Positions 12,709-61,411 are shown, counted from the first letter of the stretch. The stretch is DNA of 64,000 nucleotides from Pseudomonadota bacterium (GCA_039177555.1 JBCDFV010000023.1:4898-68897); one strand, 5' to 3'. Numbers and translations are program-made. The notes: a model not told the origin generated them from the letters alone.

Positions 12709-14346
12709 ATGGCCAAGACCTATGACTACATCATCACGGGCAGCGGCCCCGCCGGCTGCGTGCTGGCCCATCGGCTGACGGAAGACCCGGACGTCACCGT
12801 GCTGTTGCTGGAAGCCGGCGGCCCGGACCGGCACCCCTACATCCACATGCCCGCCGGCTTCGCCAAGCTAACCGGCGGCCGGTCCAACTGGGGTTATTCC
12901 ACCACGCCCCAGGCGGCGCTGGGCAACCGGGATTTCTGGTACCCCCAAGGCAAGGTCTTGGGCGGCGGCTCGTCGATCAACGCCCAGATCTACACCCGCG
13001 GTAATGCGCTCGATTACGACGAATGGGCCGACGAGGCGGGCTGCGAAGGCTGGTCTTACAAGGACGTCCTGCCCTATTTCAGGCGCGCGGAGGACAATGA
13101 CCGCTTCTCCGACGCGTTCCACGGCAATGGCGGCCCGCTGGGCGTGTCGGAGCCGGTCAATCCCCTGCCGATCTCGAAGGTCTTTCTGCGCGCCGCCCAA
13201 CAGGCCGGGCTGCCCTTCAATCCGGACTTCAACGGCGCGGTGCAGGAGGGCTGCGGCTATTACCAGATGACCCAGCGCAACGCCAAACGGTGCAGCGCCG
13301 CCGTCGGCTATCTGCGCCCAGTGCTCAGCCGGCCCAACCTGACGGTGAAGACCGGCGTGATGGTCACGAAGATTCTCATCGAAAACGGCCGCGCGGTCGG
13401 CGTCGAACAGGCCGAGGGCTCGACCGTCACCTCGACACGGTGCGAGCGCGAGGTGCTGGTCACGTCCGGCGCGATCGGCTCGCCGAAACTGCTGCTGCTG
13501 TCCGGCATTGGCCCGGCGGAGCATCTGCGCGCGGTCGGCATCGATCCGGTCCATGTTCTGCCCGGTGTCGGCGAAAACCTGCAAGACCACATGGACGTCT
13601 ATGTGGTCAACGAGTTGATCGGCAATCACAGCTACGACCATGTGGCCAAGCCGCACCACACCCTTTGGGCCGGCATTCAGTATGTCGTCCTGCGCAAAGG
13701 GCCGGTGGCCTCGAACCTGATCGATGCCGGGGGGTTCTGGTACGCCGACGAACAGGCCCGCTCGCCGGATATTCAGTTCCACTTCGTCTTGGGCTCGGGG
13801 CTGGAACACGGTCTTGAGAAGCTGAAGAATGACGGCGTGACCCTGAACTCCGCCTTCCTACGCCCGCGCTCGCGCGGCTGGGTGCGGCTCGCCTCCGCCG
13901 ACCCCAACGCCGCGCCGCTGATCAACCCCAACTATTGGGGCGATGCATATGATCGGGACATGTCGATCCGGGGCTTCAAGCTGACCCGCGAGATCATGGG
14001 CCAGGAAGCGTTCACACCCTACATCCGGGCCGAACGTCTGCCGGGCCCCGACGTGAAGTCAGAGGCCGATATCGCCGCCTATGCCACGCAGCGCGCCAAG
14101 ACCGACTACCATCCGGTCGGCACCTGCAAGATGGGCGTCGACGACTTCGCGGTGGTCGATCCCGATCTGCGGGTGCATGGGCTGGAGGGGCTGCGCGTCT
14201 GCGACTCCTCGGTCATGCCGCTGTTGGTGTCGTCCAATACCAACGCGCCCACGACCATGGTCGCGGAAAAGGCCGCCGATCACATCAGGGGCATCGTGCC
14301 CCAAGCCGCGGACGATGCGGCCCAGCATCAAAGAGTGAGCCCATGA
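12709..14346 (+). CDS. GMC-family oxidoreductase (choline/alcohol dehydrogenase-like)
   Basis: 545 aa with YDYIITGSGPAGCVLAHRLTED, GKVLGGGSSINAQIY and GMC signature 2 (GAIGSPKLLLLSGIGP). The catalytic His region is YHPVGTCKMG. Confidence 0.9.
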   Translation: MAKTYDYIITGSGPAGCVLAHRLTEDPDVTVLLLEAGGPDRHPYIHMPAGFAKLTGGRSNWGYSTTPQAALGNRDFWYPQGKVLGGGSSINAQIYTRGNALDYDEWADEAGCEGWSYKDVLPYFRRAEDNDRFSDAFHGNGGPLGVSEPVNPLPISKVFLRAAQQAGLPFNPDFNGAVQEGCGYYQMTQRNAKRCSAAVGYLRPVLSRPNLTVKTGVMVTKILIENGRAVGVEQAEGSTVTSTRCEREVLVTSGAIGSPKLLLLSGIGPAEHLRAVGIDPVHVLPGVGENLQDHMDVYVVNELIGNHSYDHVAKPHHTLWAGIQYVVLRKGPVASNLIDAGGFWYADEQARSPDIQFHFVLGSGLEHGLEKLKNDGVTLNSAFLRPRSRGWVRLASADPNAAPLINPNYWGDAYDRDMSIRGFKLTREIMGQEAFTPYIRAERLPGPDVKSEADIAAYATQRAKTDYHPVGTCKMGVDDFAVVDPDLRVHGLEGLRVCDSSVMPLLVSSNTNAPTTMVAEKAADHIRGIVPQAADDAAQHQRVSP

Positions 14347-14651
14347 TCCGCCATTGCGTTTTCATCCGCTACCGGCCCGACACCCCGCCCGAGATGAAGC
14401 GGCAAATCGGCACCGAGATCGCCGCCCTGAAGGGCCGCCTTCCAGGCCTGCGCGCGGTGCATCTGGGCGACAATGTCAGCCCCGAGGGCCTCGATAAGGG
14501 CCACAGCGAGGGCTTCATGGTCGATTTCGACGACGAAGTCGCGCTCCACCGCTATCTGGCGGACCCGGACCACAAGAAGACCGGCGCGAAGACTGTCGCA
14601 GCCGCAGAGGGTGGGCTGGACGGCATCTTTGTGTATGATCTGAGGGTGTAG
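14343..14651 (+). CDS. Dabb (stress-responsive alpha/beta-barrel) domain protein
   Basis: 102 aa with MIRHCVFIRYRPD...FMVDFDDEVALHRYLADPDH, typical of the Dabb family. There is a 4-nt overlap with the upstream gene. Confidence 0.85.
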   Translation: MIRHCVFIRYRPDTPPEMKRQIGTEIAALKGRLPGLRAVHLGDNVSPEGLDKGHSEGFMVDFDDEVALHRYLADPDHKKTGAKTVAAAEGGLDGIFVYDLRV

Positions 14652-14658
14652 CCGAGGG

Positions 14659-14674
14659 TAGCGCACGGGCGCTA
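14659..14674 (+). terminator. hairpin at the end of the LacI-headed operon (weak terminator candidate)
   Basis: TAGCGC-ACGG-GCGCTA forms a 6-bp stem 8 nt after the Dabb stop. It is followed by TTCTGTCT, which is only a weak U-tract. Confidence 0.3.
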
Positions 14675-14827
14675 TTCTGTCTGGAGTTCTTGCAATCGGC
14701 GGCCGATTAAGCGATCGGTGGATCTGCATGTTCGTGATTTGCCGCCGGTTGACGCAAAGAGCGCCGACCCAAGACGGCGTCTCGCGCGGACCGCGTTCCG
14801 TATTCCTCTTGATTGCGTGTCATCTCG

Positions 14828-15487
14828 ATGCCGTTCTTTAAGGTCTCCAGTAAACTCGTTTACTTCGCCCATGTGCCGAAATGCGCCGGGTCTGCCGTTG
14901 AGAACTATGTCGGGGCCAGATTCGGCAATATCGCCTTTCTGGACCGGTACTACCTTAGCCAACCAGAGGCGAACCGTTGGTCAAGGTCTTCGCCCCAACA
15001 TATCGATGCGGCCTCCTTGCAAAGGCTGATTCCTTTGAAGCTATTCGATGCGGTGTTCGCGATCGTTCGTCACCCGGCAACGCGGATCGTCAGCGTTTAC
15101 CGGTTCCAACGGGATGTTGAACGGTCGATCCCGTCGCAACAGAGCTTCTCCGATTGGCTGGAAGGCCTGGCCGGGAAGCGTCAAGCCAATCCATTCGCCT
15201 ATGACAACCATATCCGGCCCATGTCTGATCTGGTGCCGAACAATGCGAAGGTGTTTCGCCTCGAAGATGGTCTGGACAGGGTCGTCTCTTGGCTGGACGA
15301 TCTTGCCGGTTCCACCGACGGTCCCAGGGTGGTCCCGATCGTGAACAAAAGCGGTGCTCCACAAGAGGGCCGGGTGGTGCGTCCCAGCGACGGTGATCGC
15401 CGACTGATCGCCGAGATCTTTGCCGTCGACTTTGAGCGATTTGGGTATGGCAAACCTGTCGCTGCGCAGAATTTCATGCCGGAGTGA
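14828..15487 (+). CDS. sulfotransferase family 2 protein
   Basis: The 5'-PSB-like loop is FAHVPKCAGSAV and the 3'-PB-like motif is IVRHPATRIVSVYRF, plus DNHIRPMS. G+C is lower than the flanks. The start is uncertain (ATG 14828 or TTG 14813) and there is no clear SD. Confidence 0.8.
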   Translation: MPFFKVSSKLVYFAHVPKCAGSAVENYVGARFGNIAFLDRYYLSQPEANRWSRSSPQHIDAASLQRLIPLKLFDAVFAIVRHPATRIVSVYRFQRDVERSIPSQQSFSDWLEGLAGKRQANPFAYDNHIRPMSDLVPNNAKVFRLEDGLDRVVSWLDDLAGSTDGPRVVPIVNKSGAPQEGRVVRPSDGDRRLIAEIFAVDFERFGYGKPVAAQNFMPE

Positions 15488-15515
15488 GCGCCAATTCACC
15501 CCTGGACTCAAACAG

Positions 15516-16727
15516 TCACGCGGACTGTCTGTGGAAGATCGCTATTTCTCGCCCAGGTATGGGCGATGCGCAGCGTTCGACCGAAAACCTTCCAGTCTCG
15601 GAAACCATCCTGACGAGGGCTGGCAGGGTGAAAACGAATGTCTGATCGACGTGCTTGCTGCTCACACCCATTAGTGGCAAGTGCGCCAGATCGTCCGGAA
15701 AGGGCCCAAGTTCTTGGAACTTCGGATCTCTCAAGGTCGGATACTCGACTATGAGGCGGCGCTTGGTGAGATTCGCGGCCTTTATCAGGAAGCTTCGAAC
15801 ATCGGATACATGATGAATGACGTTGAGTGCCAGTACGTCGTCAAATTGATCCGTGAACGAAACATTAAGAAAATCTTCATTTTTGAAAGTAGCTTTACTA
15901 CATAGAATCTTTGCTATCGATTGAGCCGCATTGAACCTCCGGTACATCATTTCGATCCCAATGACCCTGTCCGCGCCAAGTCTTTCGGAAAGGAAGAGCA
16001 TCTCTCCTATGGCGCAGCCAATATCCAAAACTGAACGCCCTATATAGCTTCCCGATCGAAACTTCATGAACGTCTCGGTTCTACTGTCTGAGAGATGCCC
16101 AAAGCCTTTTCGCTTAACCCTTATGCCTTTAGGAAGAAGCACATCCTGGTATTCTGCGCCCAACATCCCCAAAGTATTATCTATGGCAGCATCTGACGGT
16201 AATGGGATGAATGACCCACGCAGGTTATGGTGGACGTAAACACGATCTGATGTCGAGAAACCACCGACCTCTTTTGAAGAGAACAGGACATCAAAAGGTA
16301 TCTTATAGTAGTCGAGTGCTCTAAAAAAACACTCATAAAAAGAGAATAGATCGACTTTCCTTATTAGCTCGAGCCAGAGCCCTCTCGGATAGAGGTCTGG
16401 GTTGCCGACCGACGGCTCTACGATTTGTCGCTCGTTTGCTCTTTCGATGAGCTCTTCAATAGGCGCTACTATCACGATTGCGTGCGAAATATTCTGAGAG
16501 AGAAGTATTTTCTTCAGTATTGGCTCTTCAGCAATATCAAGTCCTAATGCTAGTGAATTACCGATATCTGTATTTATTATATAGTGAAGTAAGTTATAGT
16601 GAATAACACCGCTGTGAGGAACATCTTTATTGACTAGATCGTGCGCAAACGAAACCGGTGAAATCGATCTTCTCTTAATGTATGTTGATTTTCCCGAGTT
16701 GCTGGGGCCTGATACAAGCAATGTCAC
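15516..16727 (-). CDS. fusion protein: N-terminal Walker-A P-loop (kinase-like) domain plus C-terminal class I SAM-dependent methyltransferase
   Basis: 403 aa with a GTG start. Walker A GPSNSGKST lies at residues 7-15. MTase motif I is VLDIGCAIGEM, with post-I GADRVIGIE and DVLALNVIHHV. The DNA is very AT-rich: 40 G+C in 120 nt at 16501-16620. Confidence 0.75.
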   Translation of the reverse strand: MTLLVSGPSNSGKSTYIKRRSISPVSFAHDLVNKDVPHSGVIHYNLLHYIINTDIGNSLALGLDIAEEPILKKILLSQNISHAIVIVAPIEELIERANERQIVEPSVGNPDLYPRGLWLELIRKVDLFSFYECFFRALDYYKIPFDVLFSSKEVGGFSTSDRVYVHHNLRGSFIPLPSDAAIDNTLGMLGAEYQDVLLPKGIRVKRKGFGHLSDSRTETFMKFRSGSYIGRSVLDIGCAIGEMLFLSERLGADRVIGIEMMYRRFNAAQSIAKILCSKATFKNEDFLNVSFTDQFDDVLALNVIHHVSDVRSFLIKAANLTKRRLIVEYPTLRDPKFQELGPFPDDLAHLPLMGVSSKHVDQTFVFTLPALVRMVSETGRFSVERCASPIPGREIAIFHRQSA

Positions 16728-16841
16728 TTCAGCATTCCATGTCTTTGAGAAACATCCGTGTCATCAGCATCGAGCACGCCTTATCGGGACTACAGGCTGA
16801 TTAAGCTGTCAAGTAACAGAAGCAACCCGGCTAACGGCAAA

Positions 16842-16866
16842 GATCCACTGCGATCCACTGCGATCT
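16842..16866. repeat. short tandem repeat (GATCCACTGC x2.4)
   Basis: GATCCACTGC occurs at 16842-16851 and 16852-16861, then GATCT(AC), in non-coding DNA at the right edge of the AT-rich islet. Confidence 0.6.
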
Positions 16867-17093
16867 ACGTCGATGAGCCTCCATTGATACTGCAGATTGC
16901 GGCCGCCGCAAACCGCACCGACGTTGCAGAATACACATAAAAAAGTGTCTGCAGGATCTTTGCTTGAAGCATTGGCCGATACACCGCTTCGCTACTGCAT
17001 GCAACAAGTGTGTTTAGCGCCGTCCGTCCCACTTGCCTTGCCGGTTGGCTCAGGCTGATACCGCAAGTAACAAGGTCTTTGAGCAGCCAATCC

Positions 17094-17876
17094 CTACGAC
17101 ATGATCAGCCCGCCATCGACGTTGATCGTCTGGCCGGTGATGTAGGCCGCGTCGTCGCTGGCTAGGAAGGCGACCAGGCCGGCGACGTCGTTCCCTGTTC
17201 CCGCCCGGCCCATGGGGATGCTTGAAACCCACTCGGCCATCAACTCGCCCGGCTTGTAGTTGCCCAGCAGCTTGCCCCAGGCCTCGTCATTATAGGCCCA
17301 CATGTCGGTGTCGATGATGCCGGGGCAAAAGGCGTTCACGGTGATGCCTTCCTTGGCGACCTCCTTGGCCAGGCTTTGGGTGATCCCCACCACGCCGAAT
17401 TTGCTGGCGGCATAGTGCGGCGTGTAGATGAAACCCTCCCGCGCCTGGCCCGAGGCGGTGTTGATCAGCCGGCCGCCGGACCCGTGCTTGCGCATGCGCG
17501 CGATCGCTTCCTGACAGCAGAGAAACACGCCCTTGGTGTTCACCGCCAGGGTGCGGTCCCACTCCGCCTCGGTCATCTTCTCGATCGGCGCGATCGTGAT
17601 GACCCCGGCGTTTTGAACGGAGATGTCGACACGGCCGTAAGCGTCCTCTGCCGAGTCATAAAGCGCGGTGACATCGGCGCGATCGGTCACGTCACCGACA
17701 AAGGCCGTGGCCGTCCCACCGCCTGCACGGATGGCATCGGCAACGCTCTCGACCGCCTGCTCATTGGCGGAAACCACGACGCCGGCGCCTTCCCGTGCGA
17801 ACCGTTTGGCGATCGCTGCGCCAATGCCCCGGCTGGCGCCGGTGACGACAACGGTCTTGCCCGTGAATCTGGTCAT
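17094..17876 (-). CDS. SDR-family polyol/sugar dehydrogenase (sorbitol/galactitol dehydrogenase-like)
   Basis: The start is ATG 17876, preceded by a GGGGGAGG SD. The sequence has TGKTVVVTGASRGIGAAIA, NAG and YAASK. The C-terminus is DDAAYITGQTINVDGGLIMS. Confidence 0.9.
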   Translation of the reverse strand: MTRFTGKTVVVTGASRGIGAAIAKRFAREGAGVVVSANEQAVESVADAIRAGGGTATAFVGDVTDRADVTALYDSAEDAYGRVDISVQNAGVITIAPIEKMTEAEWDRTLAVNTKGVFLCCQEAIARMRKHGSGGRLINTASGQAREGFIYTPHYAASKFGVVGITQSLAKEVAKEGITVNAFCPGIIDTDMWAYNDEAWGKLLGNYKPGELMAEWVSSIPMGRAGTGNDVAGLVAFLASDDAAYITGQTINVDGGLIMS

Positions 17877-17890
17877 CCTTGCCTCCCCCT

Positions 17891-18856
17891 TCATGTGCCC
17901 GCCGGTTCGCCAAGCAGGCGGCCGGCGGTGAATTTGTCGGTGATCAGAATGTCGACATAGCCGCCCAGCAGCGCCGCCTTGATCGCGCGGTCCTTGCGCG
18001 CGCCGCCGGCGATGCCGACAACCCGGTCCGCGCCCTTCAGCTCGTCCAGGCTGATGGAAATGACCCGGTCATCCAGCGGCGTGCGCACCGGCGTGCCGTC
18101 GGCGGCGAAGAAGCGTAGGCAGATGTCGCCCTCCGCCCCGCTGTCCTTCAGCTCTTGCAGTTCCTCGGGCGTGAAGACATTGCCGCTGGTGGCCAGCATG
18201 CGCGACGGTTCGACCGCGCCGATGCCGACCAGCGCTAGGCTGACATCGCGAAACTCGTCCATCGTTGCCTGCACGAAGCTGTCGTCCAGCAAGGCGCGTC
18301 TGGCCTCGATGCTGCTGGCGACTCCCGGCGCGGACAGCAATTGCGGCTGGGCGCCCGTCAGTTGGGCCAGCCGCGTGGTCAGATGGGTCGCGTGCACCTG
18401 AACGCTAGGGTTGCCCATGCCGCCCAGGATCTGCACCACGCGCGCCGCCTTCACCCGCTTCAACGGGGGCAGGCTGTCGACCATGCGCAAGAGCGACGCG
18501 CTCCAGGACGAGATGCCGATCACCTCGCGGTCGTTCAGCGTCGTCGACAGAAAGTGCGCCGCCGCGTCGCCGATCGCCGACAGGATCGACTCCTCGCGGT
18601 CCTCGCCGCATTCCGCCACGATCGCTTCCTTCAGGCCAAAGCGTTCGCGCAAGCCGGTTTCCAGATCGGGGAAGGTGCCGCGCGGCACGTTGATGGTGAT
18701 GCGGACGATGTTCTCGTCCACCGCCCGCTTCAACAGGCGCGAGATGGTGGCTTGCGAGATGTTCAGGATCGCTGAGATCTGGGCCTGCTTCAGCCCCTCC
18801 AGATAGTACATCTGGGTGACACGGGTGATCAGCCGCAATTCGTTGGTGCGCGCCAT
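17891..18856 (-). CDS. SorC-family sugar-binding transcriptional regulator
   Basis: 321 aa. The N-terminal HTH is VTQMYYLEGLKQAQISAILNISQATISRLLKRA. It is followed by a DeoR-C/SorC sugar-phosphate-binding domain (GISSWSASL, GGARK). Confidence 0.9.
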   Translation of the reverse strand: MARTNELRLITRVTQMYYLEGLKQAQISAILNISQATISRLLKRAVDENIVRITINVPRGTFPDLETGLRERFGLKEAIVAECGEDREESILSAIGDAAAHFLSTTLNDREVIGISSWSASLLRMVDSLPPLKRVKAARVVQILGGMGNPSVQVHATHLTTRLAQLTGAQPQLLSAPGVASSIEARRALLDDSFVQATMDEFRDVSLALVGIGAVEPSRMLATSGNVFTPEELQELKDSGAEGDICLRFFAADGTPVRTPLDDRVISISLDELKGADRVVGIAGGARKDRAIKAALLGGYVDILITDKFTAGRLLGEPAGT

Positions 18857-38372: not shown

Positions 38373-39482
38373 CTACGGTGCCTGTTCCAGCTTCAGGTAA
38401 AAGTCGCGATAGATGGCGTCGCGGTTGATGTCGTAAGCCTCGCGCATCGCATGGCGCCCCTCGGGGTGCTGCCAGGTCAGATCGTCGGCCAGGACGGGCG
38501 CCGGCAAGATGTCGGTCGGCACCCAGGCGGGATTGATCAGCCAGGCGATGTTGATGATGTCCCAGACGATCCAAGTGCGCCATTCGATGCCGGTGATGCC
38601 GCGCTGATCGTGGATCGGGTTGTTGGTATAGAGATGATAGAGATAGTCGCCGATCGCGCCCTTGCCGCGCACCCATTTCTCCATCTCCGGCAGCGAGATG
38701 GTGAGCTGCGCCCCGATGTGGAACCCGGGCAGGTAGACATGGGCCACGCCGCTCTCAAACAGCAATTGTGATGCCAATTTGTCCTGCACCAGGTTCAGCG
38801 ACGGCACGTTGTTGCGATGGCTGCGGCTCGGGTAGCCCGAGGTCCACAAAACGACCATGTTGTCGATGATCTCCGGCGCCATCAGCAGCGCCGAGGCGAT
38901 GTTGGTGACGCAGCCGATCGCCGAGACATAAAGCGGCCGGTCCGAAGGCGCCAAGGCCTGCTCGATGATGAACTCTGCCGCCGGCGTGCGGATCGGCTGG
39001 TCCAGTGAGGTGAGATAGCCGGGCGAGCCGTGGAAGACCTTGCCGCCGGGGTCCATGTTCAGCTTGTCGTAGACCCGCAGGATTTCGTCATAGCTGCGCT
39101 GTTCGCCTTCGTCGGGCGGCACGAACTCGACTTCGGCCGGGTGTCTTTCTTGGTCTATCAAGCCTTCGACCCAGCCGCGATAGGTGCCGACGATCGCGTG
39201 TTCCTCGGCCGTTTTGGCGCCGCCTTCCTTCATGATCTCGTGCGCCTGCAAGAGGCCCGGCCGCAGATGCTGGAACGAGTAGGGCTCTGCCGTGACGCCT
39301 TCCACCTCGATCTGGTCCGGCGACAACAGCGCCCAGGCGAGCGCGAACTGGTCGTCGATCTCGTTGGCGGTATCCGTGTCCAGCACCATGCGCACGGGGC
39401 CCGTGGGCGGCGCCAGCAGGCGGCGCATATGGTCATCGGGAAGCGGTTTGAACCGGTCGATGATCTCGCGGGGAATGGCCAT
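38373..39482 (-). CDS. nucleoside hydrolase-family protein (atypically long)
   Basis: 369 aa with the Ca-binding Asp cluster MVLDTDTANEIDDQFAL. It has an N-terminal extension of about 30 aa before the DxDxxxDD motif. Confidence 0.75.
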   Translation of the reverse strand: MAIPREIIDRFKPLPDDHMRRLLAPPTGPVRMVLDTDTANEIDDQFALAWALLSPDQIEVEGVTAEPYSFQHLRPGLLQAHEIMKEGGAKTAEEHAIVGTYRGWVEGLIDQERHPAEVEFVPPDEGEQRSYDEILRVYDKLNMDPGGKVFHGSPGYLTSLDQPIRTPAAEFIIEQALAPSDRPLYVSAIGCVTNIASALLMAPEIIDNMVVLWTSGYPSRSHRNNVPSLNLVQDKLASQLLFESGVAHVYLPGFHIGAQLTISLPEMEKWVRGKGAIGDYLYHLYTNNPIHDQRGITGIEWRTWIVWDIINIAWLINPAWVPTDILPAPVLADDLTWQHPEGRHAMREAYDINRDAIYRDFYLKLEQAP

Positions 39483-44731: not shown

Positions 44732-45484
44732 ATGAAAATCGCTTATGTCGTGCCAGGTCCCATGTCGAAGGGACCGATGGGCGCCACCGAAGTGAAGCGT
44801 CGTGAACGGTTGTTGAACCAATGGGCCTTTGAAGGCACGACGGCCCAGGTCGTCGATGTCGAGACCGGGCCGTCGTCCATCGAGTCCGCGTATGAGGAAA
44901 TGCTGGCCATTCCGGCCACGCTTGATCTCATTCGCGATTGCGAGGCCGACGGGTTTGACGCCGCCATCATCGGCTGCTTCGGCGATCCGGGGCTTGAGGC
45001 GGCGCGGGAACTGGTCCGCATGCCGGTCATCGGGCCGGCGGAGTCGTCCATGCTGTTGGCCGCCTCCCTCGGCCACAAATTCTCGATCCTGACCATCTAT
45101 GACAGCCTGATCGCCGGCCAGGAGCATCTGGCCCACAAGGCCGGTGTCGCGGCCAAGCTGGCGTCGGTGCGCGCCACCAACATCGCGGTCCTGGATCTGA
45201 TGCAGGACCGGGCCGCCACGCTCGACCGGTTGATCGAGGTCAGCCGCGCCTGCGTGAAGCAGGACCGGGCGGATTCCATCCTACTGGGCTGCATGACCAT
45301 GTCGTTCCTGGACCTCGCCGAGACGGTTTCGGCGGAGATCGGGGTTCCCGTCATCAATGCCGGCAGGGCGGCCTTGAAGCTGGCCGAAACACAGGTTTCG
45401 ATGGGCCTGAGCCATTCCGCGACGGCCTTCGCGCCGCCGCCGAAACTGGCGGCCGCCAAGCCGAAAGAGGTTTTGAGCGCCTGA
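44732..45484 (+). CDS. Asp/Glu/hydantoin racemase-family protein
   Basis: 250 aa with two catalytic-Cys regions, IIGCFGDPGL and ILLGCMTMS. It is preceded by an AGGAGG SD. Confidence 0.85.
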   Translation: MKIAYVVPGPMSKGPMGATEVKRRERLLNQWAFEGTTAQVVDVETGPSSIESAYEEMLAIPATLDLIRDCEADGFDAAIIGCFGDPGLEAARELVRMPVIGPAESSMLLAASLGHKFSILTIYDSLIAGQEHLAHKAGVAAKLASVRATNIAVLDLMQDRAATLDRLIEVSRACVKQDRADSILLGCMTMSFLDLAETVSAEIGVPVINAGRAALKLAETQVSMGLSHSATAFAPPPKLAAAKPKEVLSA

Positions 45485-45590
45485 GTGCCGACCGGCGGCA
45501 ACCGCGCCGCTCAACAAGAACACGCCCGGCCCGAGCAATCGGAAACCGGGCGTCATGTACAAGCAGTGAATGAGCAAGGAGGTCCCTTTC

Positions 45591-47246
45591 ATGAAAAACC
45601 TGTTCAAGGCGACGACCGCGTTCGGCCTCGCCCTTTCGGTCGCCGGCCCGGTCTTCGCCGCCGGTGACGAGATCCGCGAAATTACACTTCTTTCCCAACC
45701 TCAGGCCGCCCAGCCGGCTGAGTTTCAGTTCATTCAACTGATTGCCCAGGAATGGCGCCGGCTCGGTTTGGACGTCAACGTCGAAGTCATGCCTTGGGAA
45801 CAGATGGCGGAGGTTGTCTGGTACAACCGTGATGACTGGGATTCAACCGGATGGCGAATGGTCGGCCGGCCCGAGAGAAGCGACCCGGACGAGTTGATCT
45901 ACAACCTTTTCCACTCATCCACCGCGCCGACGGGATACAACTTCATCGGCTATCAAAACCCCGAGTATGATGCCATCGTCGAGGCGCAGCGCACGGAGAC
46001 GGATACCGATACGCGCCGGGACCTGATCCATCAGGCCCAGGCGATCCTAGCTCAAGACCAGCCAAATCTGATGCTGGCTCATCCTCAGTCCACGTTTGCT
46101 TACGACAACACGGTTTGGAATCCGGACTCGGTGGTCGAGCAGGGTGGCATTGGTATTCGGAACACCTGGACGTTCTTGAACCTGGAACCCTTGGGCGACC
46201 AGCGAGACGTGATCCTGAACACCACGGAAACCGTCAGAGCAATCAATCCTCTGGAAATCAGCGGCGCCACCGATAGCTGGATCACCGAACTGGTTTGGGA
46301 TCGGTTGCTGCGGATTGGCCCTGACGGCCTGCCACAGCCCTGGGCGGCGGAAAGCTATGAGTGGCTGGACGACACCACGGTTGAGGTGGTGCTGCGCGAC
46401 GGCATGAACTGGCACGATGGCGAGCCTGTCACTGTCGAGGACGTCAAATTCTCGTTCGAAGCGCCAATGGGGGATGAGGCGCCGATGTATACGCCGTTCG
46501 TCAGCAATATCGCCGACATCGAGATTGTTGACGACGCGACGCTGCGGTTTCATTTGAACAGCCCCTCGGCCGCGTTTCCAACGGCAAGCCTGGCGAAGAT
46601 AAACCTCATCCCAATGCATATCTGGGAGCCGATCCTCGCGGATCTGGCCACACGTGATGAGGAAAACGCGGAGGACTATCAGGAAGAAGTGCCCATTGGC
46701 TCGGGGCCGTTTCGCTATGCCAGCTGGCTGACGAACGAAGAGGTTGTTCTGGAAGCAAACACAGAGCATTTCGCGGCGCCGAATGTCGATCGCTGGATTC
46801 TGCGTATCGTGCCGAACACGGAGGCCTCGCTTGGCATGCTGCGCTCGGGCGAGATCAACTTCCTGGCCGACTATCCGGGGGACGCGAACATCCTGATCGA
46901 GATGGCCAACGAGGACGGCGATCTCGAGGTCGTCTCGACGGTGGATATGGGCTTCCGCTATGTCGCCTTTAACCATCGCCGGCCACCGTTCAGCGATCCG
47001 GCCTTCCGCCAAGCCTTGTCGATGGCGATCAACCGCGACCTGATCGTCGGGGCCGCTTTCCGCGGCTTTGCCGTGCCGTCCAACTCGGTGATCTCGCCGG
47101 CGCTGGACTTCTGGCACAACGACGCGGTCGACGAGTTCGAGACCGGCGTAGAGGTGGCCCAGGCGATCCTTGCCGAGGCCGGGTATGAGGTCATCGACGG
47201 TCGGTTGCACTATCCCGACGGGGTCAGCGAAACCCTCGGCGAGTAG
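45591..47246 (+). CDS. ABC transporter substrate-binding protein, family 5
   Basis: ATG 45591 follows an AAGGAGG SD, and the track start 45570 contains that SD. The signal peptide is MKNLFKATTAFGLALSVAGPVFA. G+C is visibly lower than in the adjacent permease genes. Confidence 0.9.
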   Translation: MKNLFKATTAFGLALSVAGPVFAAGDEIREITLLSQPQAAQPAEFQFIQLIAQEWRRLGLDVNVEVMPWEQMAEVVWYNRDDWDSTGWRMVGRPERSDPDELIYNLFHSSTAPTGYNFIGYQNPEYDAIVEAQRTETDTDTRRDLIHQAQAILAQDQPNLMLAHPQSTFAYDNTVWNPDSVVEQGGIGIRNTWTFLNLEPLGDQRDVILNTTETVRAINPLEISGATDSWITELVWDRLLRIGPDGLPQPWAAESYEWLDDTTVEVVLRDGMNWHDGEPVTVEDVKFSFEAPMGDEAPMYTPFVSNIADIEIVDDATLRFHLNSPSAAFPTASLAKINLIPMHIWEPILADLATRDEENAEDYQEEVPIGSGPFRYASWLTNEEVVLEANTEHFAAPNVDRWILRIVPNTEASLGMLRSGEINFLADYPGDANILIEMANEDGDLEVVSTVDMGFRYVAFNHRRPPFSDPAFRQALSMAINRDLIVGAAFRGFAVPSNSVISPALDFWHNDAVDEFETGVEVAQAILAEAGYEVIDGRLHYPDGVSETLGE

Positions 47247-59430: not shown

Positions 59431-60541
59431 CGTACGTGGCCATGAATTTCGGGGCGATTTGGCGCAGCCTGTCGTCGCTGACGCGGCCGCTGCGCGTCAT
59501 ATAGGCGTGGGCGAGATCGACGGCGCTAAGCGGCATCAGGTCGGCAAACCGCTCGTACCAATCAAAGCTGTTCGCGGCCGCGGCCAGCAGCTTGTCCACG
59601 ACCGGCCGGCGTTCCTGCTCGAACCGCTGCAATCCTGCCGGGACGTCGTCGCCGACAGCCTCGAACGCGCGATAAAGGGCGATGGCGTCTTCCAGCGCCA
59701 GGCGGGTACCGGACCCGATGGAAAAATGCACGCTGCGCAGGGCGTCGCCGATCAGCACCATGTTGTCATGGGTCCAGTGCCGGTTGGTCACCACCGGAAA
59801 GCGGCGCCAGATCGACTTGTTGGCCACCAGACCGTGGCCGTCCAGATCCGGCGCGAACAGCCGGCCGCAATAGTCCAAACTGTCCCGCTCCGCCCAGTCC
59901 GACAGGGGTGCACGCTGCCAGGTCGCTTCGTCGCATTCGACGATGAAGGTGCTGAAATTCGGCTGATAGCGGTAGTGGTGGGCGACGAAACAGCCATGTT
60001 CGTTCTGCCGAAAGGTCAGGGTCAGCGTGTCGAACGGTTGGCGGGTGCCGTACCAGGCAAAGCGGTTGGTCAGATGACTGATCTGCGGCTGGAAATGCTC
60101 CGCGCGCTGTTCCCGGACCAACGAGCCGATCCCGTCCGCCCCGACGATGAGGTCGTAGTCTGAAAGACCGGAGACGTCCGACAGGCGGCTATTGAAGGCG
60201 AGCCGGACCCCGGCAGTCCGACACAGCGCCTGCAGGATTTCCAGCAGGTCAAGACGCCCGATGCCGGTGAAGCCGTTGCCGTCGATCGCGACCCGCTGGT
60301 CACGGTGAACGATCGCCAAATCGTCCCAGACCTCCATCTTCTGCCGAATGGTCGCATAGCTGGCCGCGTCCGCCTCTTCCAGATAGCTCAGCGCGGCATC
60401 GGAGAAGACAACCCCAAAGCCAAAGGTGGCGTCCGGCGCATTCTGCTCGATAACGGTGATGTCGTGGCCCGCGCCGTCCCGGTTCATCAGATAGGCGAAG
60501 TACAATCCCGCCGGCCCGCCACCGACGATGGCGATCTTCAT
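59405..60541 (-). CDS. FAD-dependent monooxygenase resembling the monooxygenase half of aryl-CoA (salicylyl-/2-aminobenzoyl-CoA) hydroxylases
   Basis: 378 aa with MKIAIVGGGPAGLYFAYLM, FGFGVVFSD, GADGIGS and VLIGDALRSVHFSIGSGTRLALEDA. There is no C-terminal OYE-type reductase domain. Confidence 0.8.
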   Translation of the reverse strand: MKIAIVGGGPAGLYFAYLMNRDGAGHDITVIEQNAPDATFGFGVVFSDAALSYLEEADAASYATIRQKMEVWDDLAIVHRDQRVAIDGNGFTGIGRLDLLEILQALCRTAGVRLAFNSRLSDVSGLSDYDLIVGADGIGSLVREQRAEHFQPQISHLTNRFAWYGTRQPFDTLTLTFRQNEHGCFVAHHYRYQPNFSTFIVECDEATWQRAPLSDWAERDSLDYCGRLFAPDLDGHGLVANKSIWRRFPVVTNRHWTHDNMVLIGDALRSVHFSIGSGTRLALEDAIALYRAFEAVGDDVPAGLQRFEQERRPVVDKLLAAAANSFDWYERFADLMPLSAVDLAHAYMTRSGRVSDDRLRQIAPKFMATYDAEHRDDA

Positions 60542-60588
60542 GTCGGCTCCGCGTCAAGGTAAGGGTTCGATTGCCGTGACCTTACCAG

Positions 60589-60607
60589 ATTTCCATATTG
60601 AGGAAAT
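60589..60607. promoter_or_regulatory. AT-rich inverted repeat upstream of the monooxygenase operon (candidate operator)
   Basis: ATTTCC-ATATTGA-GGAAAT lies 48-66 nt upstream of the start at 60541. An additional 7-bp inverted repeat GGTAAGG...CCTTACC lies at about 60558-60586. Confidence 0.3.
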
Positions 60608-60791
60608 AATTTTGCAATCCAGAAAACGGTCGGTTGCCTTAGGCTGAGGTGGTCGGGTGGGGACGGTTTGTGAGACGACCGAAAGCCGCCGATGCGGCTT
60701 GAGCGAGAAACACAGCGATTGCCTGACGCGCGGCGAAAACTCTGCTATGGTCGGATAACAACGCGTTACGATGATGCTTTGAGGCGAAGAT

Positions 60792-61205
60792 ATGATCGAT
60801 CTGGAACAGCGCTGCGTCGATGCTGGCTTGAAGATGACCGGCCAACGGCGGCTTATCCTTCAGGTTCTGTCGGAAGCGCAGGACCATCCGAATGTGGAAA
60901 CCGTGTTTGAGCGTGCGCGCGATATCGATTCGTCGGTCAGCATCGCGACGGTCTATCGCACGCTGCATCTGCTGGACGAGATGAACCTGGTCCAAAGGCA
61001 CGATTTCAACGAGAACTATTCCCGGTTCGAGGCCAATCTCGACCACCACCACCATCTGATCGACCTGGAAACCGGCCGCGTGATCGAGTTCCAGGATGAG
61101 GAACTGGAAGAGTTGAAGGAACGGATCGCGGCCCGGCTTGGCTACGATCTGGTCGACCACCGGCTGGAACTCTACGGCCGCAAGACGAAGAAAAGCGCGT
61201 CGTGA
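60792..61205 (+). CDS. irr: Fur-family iron response regulator (Irr type)
   Basis: 137 aa with GLKMTGQRRLILQVL, ATVYRTLHLL and the His cluster DHHHHLIDLETGRVIEF. The C-terminus is LVDHRLELYG, typical of alphaproteobacterial Irr. Confidence 0.85.
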   Translation: MIDLEQRCVDAGLKMTGQRRLILQVLSEAQDHPNVETVFERARDIDSSVSIATVYRTLHLLDEMNLVQRHDFNENYSRFEANLDHHHHLIDLETGRVIEFQDEELEELKERIAARLGYDLVDHRLELYGRKTKKSAS

Positions 61206-61411
61206 CCGACGATTGGGAAAGCGGGGAAGAGGCCTGCCGGTGTCGCGCCGCGGTTACGCGTGCGTACCGGACCCTATGTGATTCCGGCCAGGCCGAGAGC
61301 AGGGCCTACGAAGCGGCCGTGCGCATCTATCGGTTTTACCACCCGGAGGCGGCGCCCGGCGCTGCAGCGGGTGCGGTCGAGCGCTGGGTTGCCTCGGGCA
61401 CGGTGCACTGA
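61202..61411 (+). CDS. small hypothetical protein (69 aa, three Cys), translationally coupled to irr
   Basis: GTG 61202 overlaps the irr stop (GTGA). Third-position G+C is high, like the neighbours. There is a CxC motif at residues 12-14. I recognise no homologue. Confidence 0.4.
   Translation: MTDDWESGEEACRCRAAVTRAYRTLCDSGQAESRAYEAAVRIYRFYHPEAAPGAAAGAVERWVASGTVH

What the first reader, a model, noticed from the sequence alone, without database searches (positions are those of the whole stretch)
14652..17093. AT-rich 2.4-kb islet with a sulfotransferase and a P-loop/methyltransferase gene, without mobility genes or pathway context
The composition differs sharply from the surroundings. By direct count, 16501-16620 has 40 G+C in 120 nt (33%), whereas a typical flanking line (13081-13140) has 42 in 60 (70%). 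The sulfotransferase gene is intermediate.

The islet sits between two unrelated catabolic operons: the LacI-headed operon ending at 14651 and the SorC polyol locus starting at 17094. It contains only two convergent genes, 28 bp apart, which share a 6-bp-stem hairpin (ACAGTC-ACGCG-GACTGT, 15512-15528).

Its left edge carries a hairpin (14659-14674) and a 15-bp palindrome AATCGGCGGCCGATT (14694-14708). Its right edge carries direct and tandem repeats. No integrase, transposase, tRNA, glycosyltransferase, exporter or PAPS-synthesis gene is nearby.

I read this as a horizontally acquired two-enzyme modification cassette (sulfation plus methylation, possibly phosphorylation) with an unknown target. 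It is the least explainable piece of the window.
Basis: partly seen in the sequence, partly recalled or inferred. Interest (0 to 1): 0.7.

Follow-up and report, generated by a model that had tools for sequence, protein, structure and literature searches.

The report
Strain-variable glycan-decoration slot with swapped-in kinase-methyltransferase
The AT-rich patch is a small, strain-variable slot for enzymes that probably decorate a cell-surface sugar polymer, where a long-resident sulfate-adding enzyme now sits beside a recently swapped-in, uncharacterised kinase-like/methyltransferase fusion that turns up next to sulfate-adding enzymes in many unrelated bacteria.

Summary
The lowest-GC stretch (15452-17097, GC 0.48 against 0.66 elsewhere; z = -8.3; tetranucleotide z = 14.9) starts exactly where DNA homology to three syntenic relatives breaks.

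The islet is not one cassette, though. The Sulfotransfer_2 gene (14828-15487) is resident: it lies after the same Dabb gene in four lineages and diverges in step with its flanks. Only 15452-17097 was replaced. That segment holds a new 12-residue sulfotransferase tail, the P-loop/methyltransferase gene (15516-16727, minus strand) and a 366-nt spacer.

Relatives carry other glycan enzymes in this slot: GT2 glycosyltransferases, a NeuD/PglD-type sugar acetyltransferase, and a TylF/rhamnosyl-O-methyltransferase fusion.

The 403-aa protein joins an unannotated P-loop domain (kinase-like by fold, weakly) to a class I SAM methyltransferase. Members of this family lie beside sulfotransferases of three Pfam families in at least 10 independent loci. 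One sits in the WbdD position of a Wzm-Wzt(Wzt_C)-GT2 cluster. A stand-alone P-loop copy follows a Sulfotransfer_2 gene in Rhodobacter.

My best reading is a surface-glycan decoration pair: sulfation, plus phosphorylation and/or methylation in the manner of a methyl-phosphate cap. The chemistry and the target are inferred, not shown.

The parts
14652..14827 (+). Conserved Dabb-sulfotransferase intergenic region. It holds the hairpin at 14659-14674 and the palindrome AATCGGCGGCCGATT at 14694-14708.
   Evidence: It aligns continuously with L006 and L009. It is therefore ancestral sequence, not an islet boundary. Folding gives z = -1.77, with 12 of 200 shuffles folding at least as well.
14828..15487 (+). 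Family-2 sulfotransferase gene, 219 aa from the ATG at 14828. It is resident at this site. PAPS-binding-type motifs are intact (HVPKCAGS; RHPATRIVS).
   Evidence: Pfam Sulfotransfer_2, E = 1.2e-11. PHROG 3347, annotated as galactose-3-O-sulfotransferase, 2.1e-11. It lies after Dabb in L006, L009 and L011 at 90, 85 and 70% identity. Invariant columns were taken from alignment A7. Homologues lie inside polysaccharide clusters.
15394..15414 (+). An 11-bp tandem repeat (TGATCGCCGAC x 1.9) inside the 3' end of the sulfotransferase gene. The 105-bp duplication in relative L006 begins here.
15452..17097 (.). The replaced (swapped-in) segment: a new 12-codon sulfotransferase tail, the P-loop/MT gene and a 366-nt spacer. 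This is the true compositional islet.
   Evidence: Homology to L006, L009 and L011 stops at 15449-15452 and resumes at 17093-17098. GC is 0.480, z = -8.3; tetranucleotide z = 14.9. No remnant of the relatives' cargo genes was found. The non-coding parts match nothing in any fetched locus.
15516..16727 (-). A 403-aa fusion protein. Residues 1-190 form an unannotated P-loop domain (Walker A G7-T15; invariant K13, H43, N45, R96, R100, Y113). Residues ~195-403 form a class I SAM methyltransferase (LDIGCAxG, LNVIHH, EFPT).
   Evidence: for the MT domain. Alignment A1 for the invariant residues. AlphaFold2 pLDDT is 90.0 for the full protein and 91.7 for the N-domain alone. By Foldseek the N-domain resembles adenylate, thymidylate and polynucleotide kinases and zeta toxin, weakly. 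The MT domain resembles NodS, ChlM, CmoB and EvdMO1.
15512..15528 (.). Six-bp-stem hairpin between the convergent genes. It overlaps the stop codon of the minus-strand gene.
   Evidence: It is present. Folding is no better than shuffles (z = 0.24 and -0.07), and it lacks a T-tract that meets the terminator pattern.
16728..17093 (.). A 366-nt non-coding spacer upstream of the P-loop/MT gene, GC 0.52. It contains the 10-bp x 2.4 tandem repeat GATCCACTGC at 16842-16865.
   Evidence: No sigma-70-like site was found in it. It matches nothing in the relatives, in other family loci or elsewhere in the window.

Best explanation
The Dabb-SDR gap is a small, strain-variable slot for enzymes that decorate a cell-surface glycan. 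It is anchored by a resident, probably PAPS-dependent, family-2 glycan sulfotransferase.

In this lineage the ancestral partner, probably a GT2 glycosyltransferase, was replaced. The replacement junction lies in the variable 3' tail of the sulfotransferase gene. The incoming gene is AT-rich and encodes a P-loop kinase-like domain fused to a SAM methyltransferase.

I propose that this fusion enzyme acts on the same glycan as the sulfotransferase. The P-loop domain would use ATP to phosphorylate a sugar hydroxyl. The fused methyltransferase would then methylate that phosphate or a neighbouring hydroxyl. This would work like the methyl-phosphate capping enzymes WbdD (E. coli O9a) and ORF6 (K. pneumoniae O7), but with a third, unrelated kinase domain. 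The combined result would be a sulfated and (phospho)methylated epitope that alters surface properties.

Shown here: the gene identities and folds, the replacement and its junctions, the glycan nature of the alternative cargo, and the recurrent genomic association with sulfotransferases and glycan clusters.

Inferred: kinase activity, the order of the reactions, the target glycan, and that the two enzymes share a substrate.
For: 1. Replacement. Homology to three syntenic relatives breaks at about 15451 and resumes at about 17098. The segment between is compositionally foreign. The sulfotransferase is shared at 90/85/70% identity, in the same order as SorC at 99/98/86%.

2. The slot carries glycan chemistry in the relatives: GT2-like proteins in L006, L009 and L011, a NeuD/PglD-type sugar acetyltransferase (TIGR03570, 3.9e-45), and a TylF (1.9e-82) plus rhamnosyl-O-MT/CmcI fusion. 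L006 has a weak IS630-type fragment and a 105-bp duplicate of the sulfotransferase 3' end.

3. Sulfotransferase-family homologues sit inside polysaccharide clusters. In Limimaricola one lies between a GT2 and a Polysacc_synt (flippase-type) gene, with Wzz-like, Wzy_C and Bac_transf genes nearby. In Parvularcula one is embedded in what looks like a dTDP-rhamnose (rml-type) operon.

4. The N-domain model is confident (pLDDT 91.7). All 50 top structural neighbours are P-loop kinases and none is a sulfotransferase. AAA_33 and AAA_18 give weak hits in 16 and 12 of 26 members. Profile-profile comparison with two sulfotransferase families gives probabilities of 3% and 0.4%.

5. Among 103 neighbours of 35 family loci, the commonest Pfam families are Sulfotransfer_3 (7), Sulfotransfer_1 (5), then glycosyltransferases. 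ABC2_membrane, Sulfotransfer_2 and Lip_A_acyltrans follow with 2 each.

6. Adjacent sulfotransferases were found in L019/L020, L021, L026, L032, L038, L040 (two) and L069, and one about 0.9 kb away in L018.

7. L029 reads Wzm, Wzt with its Wzt_C domain, P-loop/MT, another MT, then three GT2 genes. That is the position WbdD occupies, and Wzt's carbohydrate-binding module recognises terminal caps (PMC3482155, PMC11231755).

8. A stand-alone N-domain lies 97 bp downstream of a Sulfotransfer_2 gene and next to a Branch-family glycosyltransferase in Rhodobacter. Other members are fused to UDP-galactopyranose mutase and to a weak GT2-like region.

9. Methyl-phosphate terminators already exist with two kinase domains that differ in sequence and structure (PMC11231755).
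Against: - No biochemical data exist for any family member.
- The structural matches to kinases are weak (E = 5e-4 to 1e-2, TM 0.35-0.50).
- No invariant Asp or Glu sits where many P-loop kinases have their catalytic base. That expectation is from my own knowledge of the kinases. The invariant residues are H43 and N45 instead.
- In this window the two genes are convergent and have different histories. No glycosyltransferase of the relatives' cargo types was found by tblastn in the 64 kb; no general search for glycosyltransferase, exporter or PAPS-synthesis genes was run.
- Most of the closest family members have no sulfotransferase within 8 kb. These are the Rhizobiaceae copies, which lie beside phage lysozyme genes (one inside a prophage), and the Roseovarius and Marimonas copies.
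- The protein lacks the coiled-coil and membrane-anchor regions of WbdD-type terminators. The model shows two globular domains only.
- The strong link to sulfotransferases is not predicted by a simple WbdD analogy.
Confidence: 0.5

Rival explanations
1. The P-loop domain serves the sulfotransferase and does not act on the glycan. It would be a non-orthologous APS kinase, or another PAPS-supply or PAPS-recycling kinase, that provides the sulfate donor locally. The fused methyltransferase would add an independent methyl mark.
For: The association with sulfotransferases follows the P-loop domain itself. A stand-alone copy lies directly downstream of a Sulfotransfer_2 gene in Rhodobacter, and about half of the 521 family representatives are stand-alone. 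The sulfotransferases involved come from three different Pfam families, which fits a shared need for a cofactor better than a shared acceptor. Many alphaproteobacteria assimilate sulfate through APS and so need a dedicated APS kinase for sulfotransferases, as with NodQ. That last point is established knowledge and was not tested here.
Against: No APS kinase appears among the top 50 structural neighbours. No APS_kinase Pfam family appears among the 25 families listed for the N-domains. By my own recall of APS-kinase motifs (LDGD, FISP), they are replaced here by IHYN and VAP. Fusion to a methyltransferase, to UDP-galactopyranose mutase or to a GT2-like region, and placement after Wzt in L029, are typical of acceptor-directed enzymes. 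Most close homologues have no sulfotransferase nearby.
Confidence: 0.17
2. The two genes are chance neighbours. The sulfotransferase is a leftover of an eroded glycan islet, and the P-loop/MT gene is an unrelated mobile passenger, for example a former prophage moron. It would methylate some other small molecule, lipid or RNA and simply landed in a permissive hot spot.
For: The two genes have different histories and a convergent orientation. The GT2 partner was lost. The closest named homologues lie beside phage lysozyme genes in Rhizobiaceae; in A. tumefaciens the gene sits between prophage lysis and tail genes. In all 13 genomes compared, the family gene has lower GC than its flanks, as expected of a mobile gene. 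The MT fold matches are generic.
Against: Sulfotransferases are the commonest neighbour family of this otherwise rare protein family, in distant phyla and in several arrangements, including twice with the same Sulfotransfer_2 clade. The slot it landed in carries glycan-modifying enzymes in every relative seen. No family member was found in two phage collections.
Confidence: 0.23
3. It is an anti-phage or toxin module: a zeta-toxin-like kinase, or a methylation-based defence gene in a defence hot spot.
For: The gene is AT-rich, lineage-specific and a singleton. PADLOC gives a hit to mad2 (3.6e-7). Zeta toxin is among the structural neighbours of the N-domain.
Against: The PADLOC hit covers only the generic SAM-binding region, residues 230-322. 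No other defence-family hit was found, and none of the 25 commonest Pfam families among 103 neighbours is a restriction, antitoxin or nuclease family. By my reading of alignment A1, the MT carries small-molecule-type motifs (LNVIHH) and none of the DNA-methyltransferase motifs I know. Structural scores to zeta toxin are weak (TM about 0.4).
Confidence: 0.04

Closest known systems
WbdD of E. coli O9a / K. pneumoniae O3, the bifunctional kinase-methyltransferase O-antigen chain terminator
   Same: Both combine a kinase-type domain and a class I SAM methyltransferase in one polypeptide. One family member (L029) sits directly after wzm and wzt(Wzt_C) and before the glycosyltransferases, which is WbdD's position (PMC3482155). 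The proposed product, a methylated phosphate on a sugar, would be the same kind of modification.
   Different: The domain order is reversed: kinase-like then MT here, MT then kinase in WbdD. WbdD's kinase has a eukaryotic protein-kinase fold, whereas this one is a P-loop domain. No coiled-coil ruler is present. No sequence similarity to WbdD was detected, since no WbdD chain appears in the listed fold-search hits. WbdD is not known to pair with sulfotransferases.
ORF6 N-terminal methyltransferase-kinase of K. pneumoniae O7, which caps terminal rhamnose with methyl-phosphate
   Same: It shows that methyl-phosphate capping has been built more than once from different kinase domains (PMC11231755). 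There is a rhamnose link as well: a relative's slot holds a rhamnosyl-O-MT-like domain, and a sulfotransferase homologue sits in what looks like an rml operon.
   Different: The O7 kinase resembles AmiN and uses a catalytic Asp (PMC11231755), and it is not described as a P-loop kinase. It is part of a very large coiled-coil, multi-GT protein.
Bacterial polysaccharide and LPS sulfotransferases, for example S. meliloti LpsS
   Same: They are PAPS-dependent enzymes that sulfate cell-surface glycans in alphaproteobacteria. Such genes are often accessory and of unclear physiological role (PMC12445080).
   Different: LpsS is annotated as an Stf0-family sulfotransferase (PMC12445080). The window gene belongs to Pfam Sulfotransfer_2. 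They are functional analogues, not members of one family.
Low-GC, strain-variable O-antigen and capsule modification loci (serotype-variable cassettes)
   Same: All show atypically low GC, conserved flanking genes, and replacement of internal glycan-modifying genes by recombination at conserved junctions. Here the evidence is four different cargoes between the same flanks and a duplicated junction in L006. The general pattern is established knowledge, not something tested here.
   Different: This slot is very small, with one to five genes. It is embedded between sugar-catabolic operons, not inside a full biosynthetic cluster. No exporter or polymerase gene was identified near it.

Membership tests
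Pfam Sulfotransfer_2 (PF03567) sulfotransferases (gene 14828-15487) | A profile match above the curated gathering score | tested here: met
   45.7 bits against a cut-off of 22; E = 1.2e-11; profile positions 11-251 of 252.
Pfam Sulfotransfer_2 (PF03567) sulfotransferases (gene 14828-15487) | PAPS-binding motifs: a 5'-phosphosulfate loop (PKxxGS type) and a 3'-phosphate motif (RxxxxRxxS type) | tested here: met
   HVPKCAGS and RHPATRIVS are present. H15, P17, C19, G21, R81, P83, R86 and S89 are invariant in 16 family members, and K18 is conserved in at least 90%. Assigning these motifs to PAPS binding rests on established knowledge of sulfotransferases.
Pfam Sulfotransfer_2 (PF03567) sulfotransferases (gene 14828-15487) | Sulfotransferase activity on a defined acceptor | not testable with these tools
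   Only genomic context suggests a polysaccharide acceptor.
Class I SAM-dependent methyltransferases (residues ~195-403 of the 403-aa protein) | A profile match above cut-off, together with a Rossmann-like MT fold | tested here: met
   Methyltransf_25 scores 36.8 against 27, Methyltransf_31 33.8 against 27, Methyltransf_11 32.8 against 21.2. Foldseek probability is 1.00 to NodS, ChlM, CmoB and others. The glycine-rich motif LDxGxxxG (L234, D235, G237, G241 invariant) is conserved.
P-loop kinases of the adenylate-kinase-like fold (N-domain, residues 1-190) | A Walker A motif, GxxxxGK[ST] | tested here: met
   GPSNSGKST. G12 and K13 are invariant in 36 sequences.
P-loop kinases of the adenylate-kinase-like fold (N-domain, residues 1-190) | Overall fold similarity to solved kinases | tested here: inconclusive
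   All 50 top hits are kinases, but E is only 5e-4 to 2.6e-2 and TM is 0.27-0.50. Pfam AAA_33 and AAA_18 hits are all below their cut-offs.
P-loop kinases of the adenylate-kinase-like fold (N-domain, residues 1-190) | A catalytic base (usually Asp) after strand 2, and LID arginines | tested here: inconclusive
   R96 and R100 are invariant and could be LID arginines. The invariant residues after strand 2 are H43 and N45, not Asp.
WbdD-type methyl-phosphate chain terminators | Homology to the WbdD kinase (eukaryotic-like kinase fold) and a C-terminal coiled coil | tested here: not met
   The kinase-like domain is a P-loop domain. The model shows two globular domains and no long helix. The protein is therefore not a member and is only a possible functional analogue.
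WbdD-type methyl-phosphate chain terminators | Location in an ABC-transporter-dependent O-polysaccharide cluster whose Wzt carries a cap-binding module | tested here: inconclusive
   Met for family member L029 and partly for L019, which has an ABC-2 membrane protein upstream. No such genes are evident at the window locus.
APS kinase (CysC, PF01583) | A profile match | tested here: not met
   No APS_kinase family appears among the 25 families listed for the 26 N-domains or in the results for the full protein. No APS kinase is among the top 50 structural hits.
Genomic island acquired by a mobile element | An integrase, transposase or tRNA target, and direct repeats at the ends | tested here: not met
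   There is no tRNA within 20 kb. No flanking direct repeats stand out above the many short chance-level matches. No mobility gene lies within 14652-17097, where only the two genes are present. Only relative L006 has a weak IS630-type fragment. Replacement by recombination is inferred instead.

The most novel reading that the evidence does not exclude
The unannotated P-loop domain (about 520 cluster representatives among 1.84 billion proteins, with no Pfam model) would be a new enzyme family that works as an obligate partner of glycan sulfotransferases. It would be either a third, independently evolved kinase for methyl-phosphate-type capping, or a new route to or use of the activated sulfate donor. 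It would define a previously unrecognised 'sulfate plus methyl(phosphate)' decoration system on bacterial surface polysaccharides, spread by cassette exchange.
Probability: 0.25. Interest if true: 0.7.

Novelty: new variant of a known kind. Interest (0 to 1): 0.5.

Why it matters
Surface-glycan decorations are widely held to influence phage adsorption, immune and plant recognition, and serotype. That is general background and was not tested here.

This analysis turns an unexplained AT-rich patch into a concrete, testable system with three parts:
- a variable slot with defined recombination junctions;
- a resident sulfotransferase;
- an uncharacterised two-domain enzyme family with a clear comparative-genomic signature, namely sulfotransferases, Wzm/Wzt clusters and glycan-enzyme fusions.

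If the P-loop domain is a glycan kinase, it would be a third independent solution to methyl-phosphate capping. If it instead supports sulfation, it would fill a gap in how bacteria that lack CysC supply their sulfotransferases.

In either case the domain deserves a family definition. At present it is annotated only as 'hypothetical protein' or 'methyltransferase domain-containing protein'.

Tried and rejected
- Remnants of the relatives' cargo genes (GT2, acetyltransferase, TylF-MT, the 358-aa unknown, the IS630 fragment) in the window, by tblastn: nothing significant.
- Donor or transfer unit. The spacer and junction sequences match nothing in 109 fetched loci or elsewhere in the window.
- Phage origin. 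No family member was found in IMG/VR or INPHARED. PHROG hits are generic MT hits only.
- Defence system. PADLOC gives only a generic MT-domain hit to mad2.
- N-domain as a cryptic sulfotransferase. hhalign probabilities are 3% and 0.4%, and there are no sulfotransferases among its structural neighbours. Rejected.
- The 604-aa MT next to the L029 member as a true WbdD homologue. A PDB sequence search finds only generic MTs. Rejected.
- Sequence-profile search of the N-domain against the PDB. Only the Walker A stretch aligns.
- An iterated (jackhmmer) sulfotransferase search drifted onto the P-loop ORFs themselves. I replaced it with a non-iterated HMM.
- The 'MT-only' loci as a negative control for sulfotransferase enrichment. 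They proved to be a related family that is itself sulfotransferase-associated, so they are not an independent control.
- The first genome scan, with the 36-sequence alignment, failed for lack of a conserved stretch. I repeated it with 12 closer sequences.
- Host identification from plasmid and chromid records. The best match is only 58% identity to Rhizobium and Sinorhizobium.


Full report
**1. The observation**

A sliding GC profile confirms a sharp dip, from 0.65-0.70 in the flanks to 0.39-0.47 around 15700-16900.
- The segment 15452-17097 has GC 0.480, against 0.660 +/- 0.022 for other windows of the same size (z = -8.3).
- Its tetranucleotide distance to the rest of the window has z = 14.9.
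- The lowest-GC 1646-nt window in the 64 kb starts at 15451.
- The sulfotransferase part is intermediate (GC 0.58, z = -3.1).
- GC3 is 0.49 for the P-loop/MT gene, 0.66 for the sulfotransferase and 0.82-0.88 for the flanking genes.

Both genes exist and are convergent, 28 nt apart.
- Gene 14813/14828-15487 (+) matches Pfam Sulfotransfer_2 (E = 1.2e-11).
- Gene 15516-16727 (-) encodes 403 aa. It has an N-terminal Walker A motif (GPSNSGKST) and a C-terminal class I SAM methyltransferase domain.

- The inter-gene hairpin region folds no better than shuffles (z = 0.24 and -0.07).
- Promoter-like and terminator-like counts are at or below the shuffle means.
- The right-edge repeat is a 10-bp x 2.4 tandem repeat.
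- The left-edge hairpin and palindrome lie in intergenic DNA that is conserved in relatives.
- The only tRNA in the window is at 38703.

**2. The islet has two parts with different histories**

An identical copy of the locus exists on one other public contig (L001).

Contigs that encode the nearest sulfotransferase homologues turned out to be syntenic relatives of the window. The gap between Dabb and SDR reads as follows.

| Lineage | Content between Dabb and SDR |
|---|---|
| Window | sulfotransferase; P-loop/MT (-) |
| L009 | sulfotransferase; 290-aa protein (-) |
| L006 | sulfotransferase; 358-aa unknown; IS630-type fragment (weak Pfam hit); 290-aa protein (-); 264-aa protein (-) |
| L011 | sulfotransferase; 490-aa protein; a different 290-aa protein |

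The sulfotransferase is 90, 85 and 70% identical to the window copy in L006, L009 and L011. This is the same rank order as SorC (99/98/86%) and SDR (95/92/83%). Its GC3 is below that of its flanks in all four lineages. It is therefore a long-term resident of this site that is still compositionally atypical.

DNA homology between the window and each relative runs unbroken through Dabb, the intergenic region and the sulfotransferase gene to window 15449-15452. That point is 36 nt before the sulfotransferase stop codon. Homology resumes at 17093-17098, at the stop codon of the SDR gene.

The replaced unit is therefore 15452-17097. It comprises a new 12-residue sulfotransferase tail, the P-loop/MT gene and a 366-nt spacer.

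The sulfotransferase family's conserved core ends at 'DFxRFGY', and the tail after it varies freely in length and sequence. The swap therefore leaves the enzyme's invariant motifs intact.

L006 carries a 105-bp second copy of the sulfotransferase 3' end, 89.5% identical to the first, bounding its own insertion. That copy begins in an 11-bp tandem repeat that is also present in the window at 15394-15414. This 3' end is thus a recurrent recombination junction.

No remnant of the relatives' cargo survives in the window. The spacer matches nothing I could fetch.

One caveat applies. The relatives were found through the sulfotransferase protein, so relatives with an empty site would have been missed.

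**3. What the slot carries**

The relatives' cargo is glycan chemistry.
- The 290-aa proteins of L006 and L009 are GT2-type glycosyltransferases (Glyco_tranf_2_4, 4.6e-13 and 3.9e-11).
- The 264-aa protein is a NeuD/PglB/VioB-type sugar acetyltransferase (TIGR03570, 3.9e-45).
- The 490-aa protein is a TylF (1.9e-82) plus rhamnosyl-O-methyltransferase/CmcI (1.1e-27) fusion.
- The 290-aa protein of L011 is weakly GT2-like.

More distant sulfotransferase homologues (about 50-56% identical) sit inside polysaccharide clusters.
- In Limimaricola one lies between a GT2 and a Polysacc_synt (flippase-type) gene, with Wzz-like, Wzy_C, Bac_transf and Hexapep genes nearby.
- In Parvularcula one is embedded in what looks like a dTDP-rhamnose (rmlC-rmlB-ST-rmlD-rmlA) operon, between giant glycosyltransferases.
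- In Maritimibacter one lies near an acyltransferase, a dTDP-sugar isomerase, an epimerase and a GT1.

This is a miniature, strain-variable glycan-decoration slot.

**4. The P-loop/methyltransferase protein**

The full-length family is rare, with 61 hits among 5.8 billion clustered proteins. The nearest relative outside the window's own cluster is 50% identical.

Alignment of 36 members shows the following invariant residues.
- N-terminal half: G12 and K13 (Walker A), H43, N45, R96, R100 and Y113.
- C-terminal half: class I MT motifs (LDIGCAxG, an acidic residue after strand 2, LNVIHH, EFPT).

AlphaFold2 models are confident: pLDDT 90.0 and pTM 0.87 for the full protein, and pLDDT 91.7 for the N-domain alone.

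The MT domain resembles generic small-molecule and sugar methyltransferases such as NodS, ChlM, CmoB and EvdMO1.

All 50 top structural neighbours of the N-domain are P-loop kinases: adenylate, thymidylate, deoxynucleoside, polynucleotide and shikimate kinases, and the zeta-toxin UDP-GlcNAc kinase. The scores are weak, however (E = 5e-4 to 2.6e-2, TM 0.27-0.50), and no sulfotransferase is among them.

Sequence profiles see only the Walker A stretch in the PDB. Against Pfam they give sub-threshold AAA_33 and AAA_18 hits. Profile-profile comparison with two sulfotransferase families is negative.

An exhaustive profile search finds 521 cluster representatives among 1.84 billion proteins. About half are stand-alone proteins of 165-260 aa with no Pfam annotation, and about half are MT fusions. 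A few have other fusions:
- UDP-galactopyranose mutase plus the N-domain;
- a weak GT2-like region plus the N-domain;
- a second kinase-like P-loop domain plus the N-domain.

The N-domain is therefore an undescribed P-loop family. It is kinase-like by fold and tied to glycan enzymes by domain fusion.

**5. Who it keeps company with**

I collected about 45 distinct loci that contain the domain.

Among 103 genes within two positions of 35 family members, the commonest Pfam families are these.

| Pfam family | Neighbours matching |
|---|---|
| Sulfotransfer_3 | 7 |
| Sulfotransfer_1 (overlaps Sulfotransfer_3 at least in part) | 5 |
| Glyco_trans_1_4 | 4 |
| Glycos_transf_2; Glycos_transf_1; Glyco_transf_4 | 3 each |
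| ABC2_membrane; Phage_lysozyme; Sulfotransfer_2; Lip_A_acyltrans (among others) | 2 each |

Locus by locus:

| Locus | Arrangement |
|---|---|
| L019/L020 | P-loop/MT, Sulfotransfer_3 51-53 bp downstream, then a lipid-A-type acyltransferase; an ABC-2 membrane protein lies upstream in L019 |
| L021 | Sulfotransfer_3 20 bp downstream |
| L040 | two sulfotransferases downstream |
| L038, L069 | a sulfotransferase upstream |
| L018 | a sulfotransferase-like gene about 0.9 kb downstream |
| L026, L032 | a gene of the window's own Sulfotransfer_2 clade directly adjacent, on the same strand; in L026 the fusion gene is split by an IS fragment |
| L110 (Rhodobacter sp. JA431) | a stand-alone N-domain 97 bp downstream of a Sulfotransfer_2 gene, beside a Branch-family glycosyltransferase |
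| L042 | a sulfatase overlapping upstream |
| L029 | Wzm, Wzt with its Wzt_C domain, P-loop/MT, a 604-aa MT, then three GT2 genes |

By contrast, the closest named homologues have no sulfotransferase within 8 kb. In Agrobacterium the gene sits in a prophage between lysis and tail genes. In A. larrymoorei and Ensifer it lies beside phage lysozyme genes or fragments. In Roseovarius and Marimonas it stands alone.

The family is absent from two phage collections. In all 13 genomes compared, the gene has lower GC than its flanks.

I could not build an independent negative control. The 'MT-only' loci from the same scan proved to be a sister family that is itself often next to sulfotransferases. The enrichment claim therefore rests on my general impression that sulfotransferases are scarce in bacterial genomes, not on a matched control.

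**6. Mechanism**

WbdD of E. coli O9a phosphorylates the terminal mannose of the O-polysaccharide and then methylates the phosphate. The carbohydrate-binding module on Wzt recognises this cap (PMC3482155).

K. pneumoniae O7 installs the same methyl-phosphate cap on rhamnose. It uses a methyltransferase-kinase pair whose kinase differs from WbdD's in sequence and predicted structure (PMC11231755). The chemistry has therefore been assembled at least twice from different kinases.

I read the window protein as a candidate third version: a P-loop kinase-like domain fused to a methyltransferase, acting on a surface glycan. Four lines of evidence support this.
- A family member occupies the WbdD position in L029.
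- The family shows glycan-enzyme fusions.
- The family's gene neighbourhoods are rich in glycan genes.
- The slot it occupies here carries glycan enzymes in every relative seen.

It is not a member of the WbdD family. The kinase fold and the domain order differ, and there is no coiled coil.

The unusually strong link with sulfotransferases is not explained by that analogy. It keeps alive a rival reading in which the P-loop domain serves the sulfotransferase, for example as a non-orthologous APS kinase. Against that rival:
- no similarity to APS kinases was detected;
- the fusions are of the acceptor-directed type.

A chance-neighbour reading cannot be excluded for this particular locus. The two genes are convergent and arrived at different times, and the GT2 partner is gone. 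A defence or toxin reading has almost no support.

**7. Verdict**

It is wrong about the unit and the history.

The locus is a new variant of a known kind, namely a low-GC, recombination-swapped surface-glycan modification slot. Its interest lies in the uncharacterised, sulfotransferase-associated P-loop/methyltransferase family. The host is an uncultured alphaproteobacterium-like lineage (source label 'Pseudomonadota bacterium' MAG). The nearest plasmid or chromid relatives of a flanking gene are only 58% identical.

Noticed in passing
window 15394-15414; L006 10569-10673 and 12751-12855: An 11-bp tandem repeat (TGATCGCCGAC x 1.9) lies inside the 3' end of the sulfotransferase gene. The 105-bp duplicated copy of that 3' end in relative L006 begins exactly in this repeat. 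This suggests microhomology at a recurrent recombination junction.
   Followed up: partly
L006 10676-10825 (compare window 13715-13852): A ~150-bp copy (75-79% identical) of an internal piece of the upstream GMC oxidoreductase gene sits just after the sulfotransferase stop codon in the relative. It is mosaic debris in the variable slot.
   Followed up: no
window ~45400-47050 and ~60250-61350: These are two further compositional outliers. The first has the largest tetranucleotide distance outside the islet (GC 0.597). The second has GC 0.571. Both are much weaker than the islet.
   Followed up: no
window 17094-17894 (-): The SDR ORF is 266 aa here but 260 aa in three relatives. The true start is probably the internal Met (M7, about 17876), which would remove the 4-nt overlap with the SorC gene.
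   Followed up: no
L002 (Agrobacterium tumefaciens CP072308.1, 322923-340164): A 47%-identical family member sits as a lone plus-strand gene in a prophage, between a phage lysozyme/PG_binding gene and tail genes (CBM_5_12, Phage-tail_3). This is a moron-like position. Yet no family member was found in INPHARED or IMG/VR.
   Followed up: partly
P0335, P0319, P0249, P0342 (proteins from the profile search): The unannotated P-loop domain also occurs fused to UDP-galactopyranose mutase, to a weak GT2-like region, to a second kinase-like P-loop domain, and to the MT plus a ~430-aa extension.
   Followed up: partly
L051, L061, L066, L078, L088 (metagenome loci): Relatives that match only the methyltransferase half (residues ~193-400), with no P-loop domain, also often have Sulfotransfer_1/3-like genes beside them. 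The sulfotransferase association therefore extends to a sister family.
   Followed up: partly
L026 890-2668: In a Deltaproteobacteria MAG the P-loop/MT gene is a pseudogene split by an IS-like fragment (a 122-aa ORF on the opposite strand), while the adjacent sulfotransferase gene is intact.
   Followed up: no
L029 7095-8906 and L028 7295-9196: Two family members, including the closest metagenomic relative at 48% identity, are each next to a homologous ~600-630-aa protein. It has an N-terminal methyltransferase domain and a ~400-aa uncharacterised C-terminal region, and it is not a detectable WbdD homologue.
   Followed up: partly
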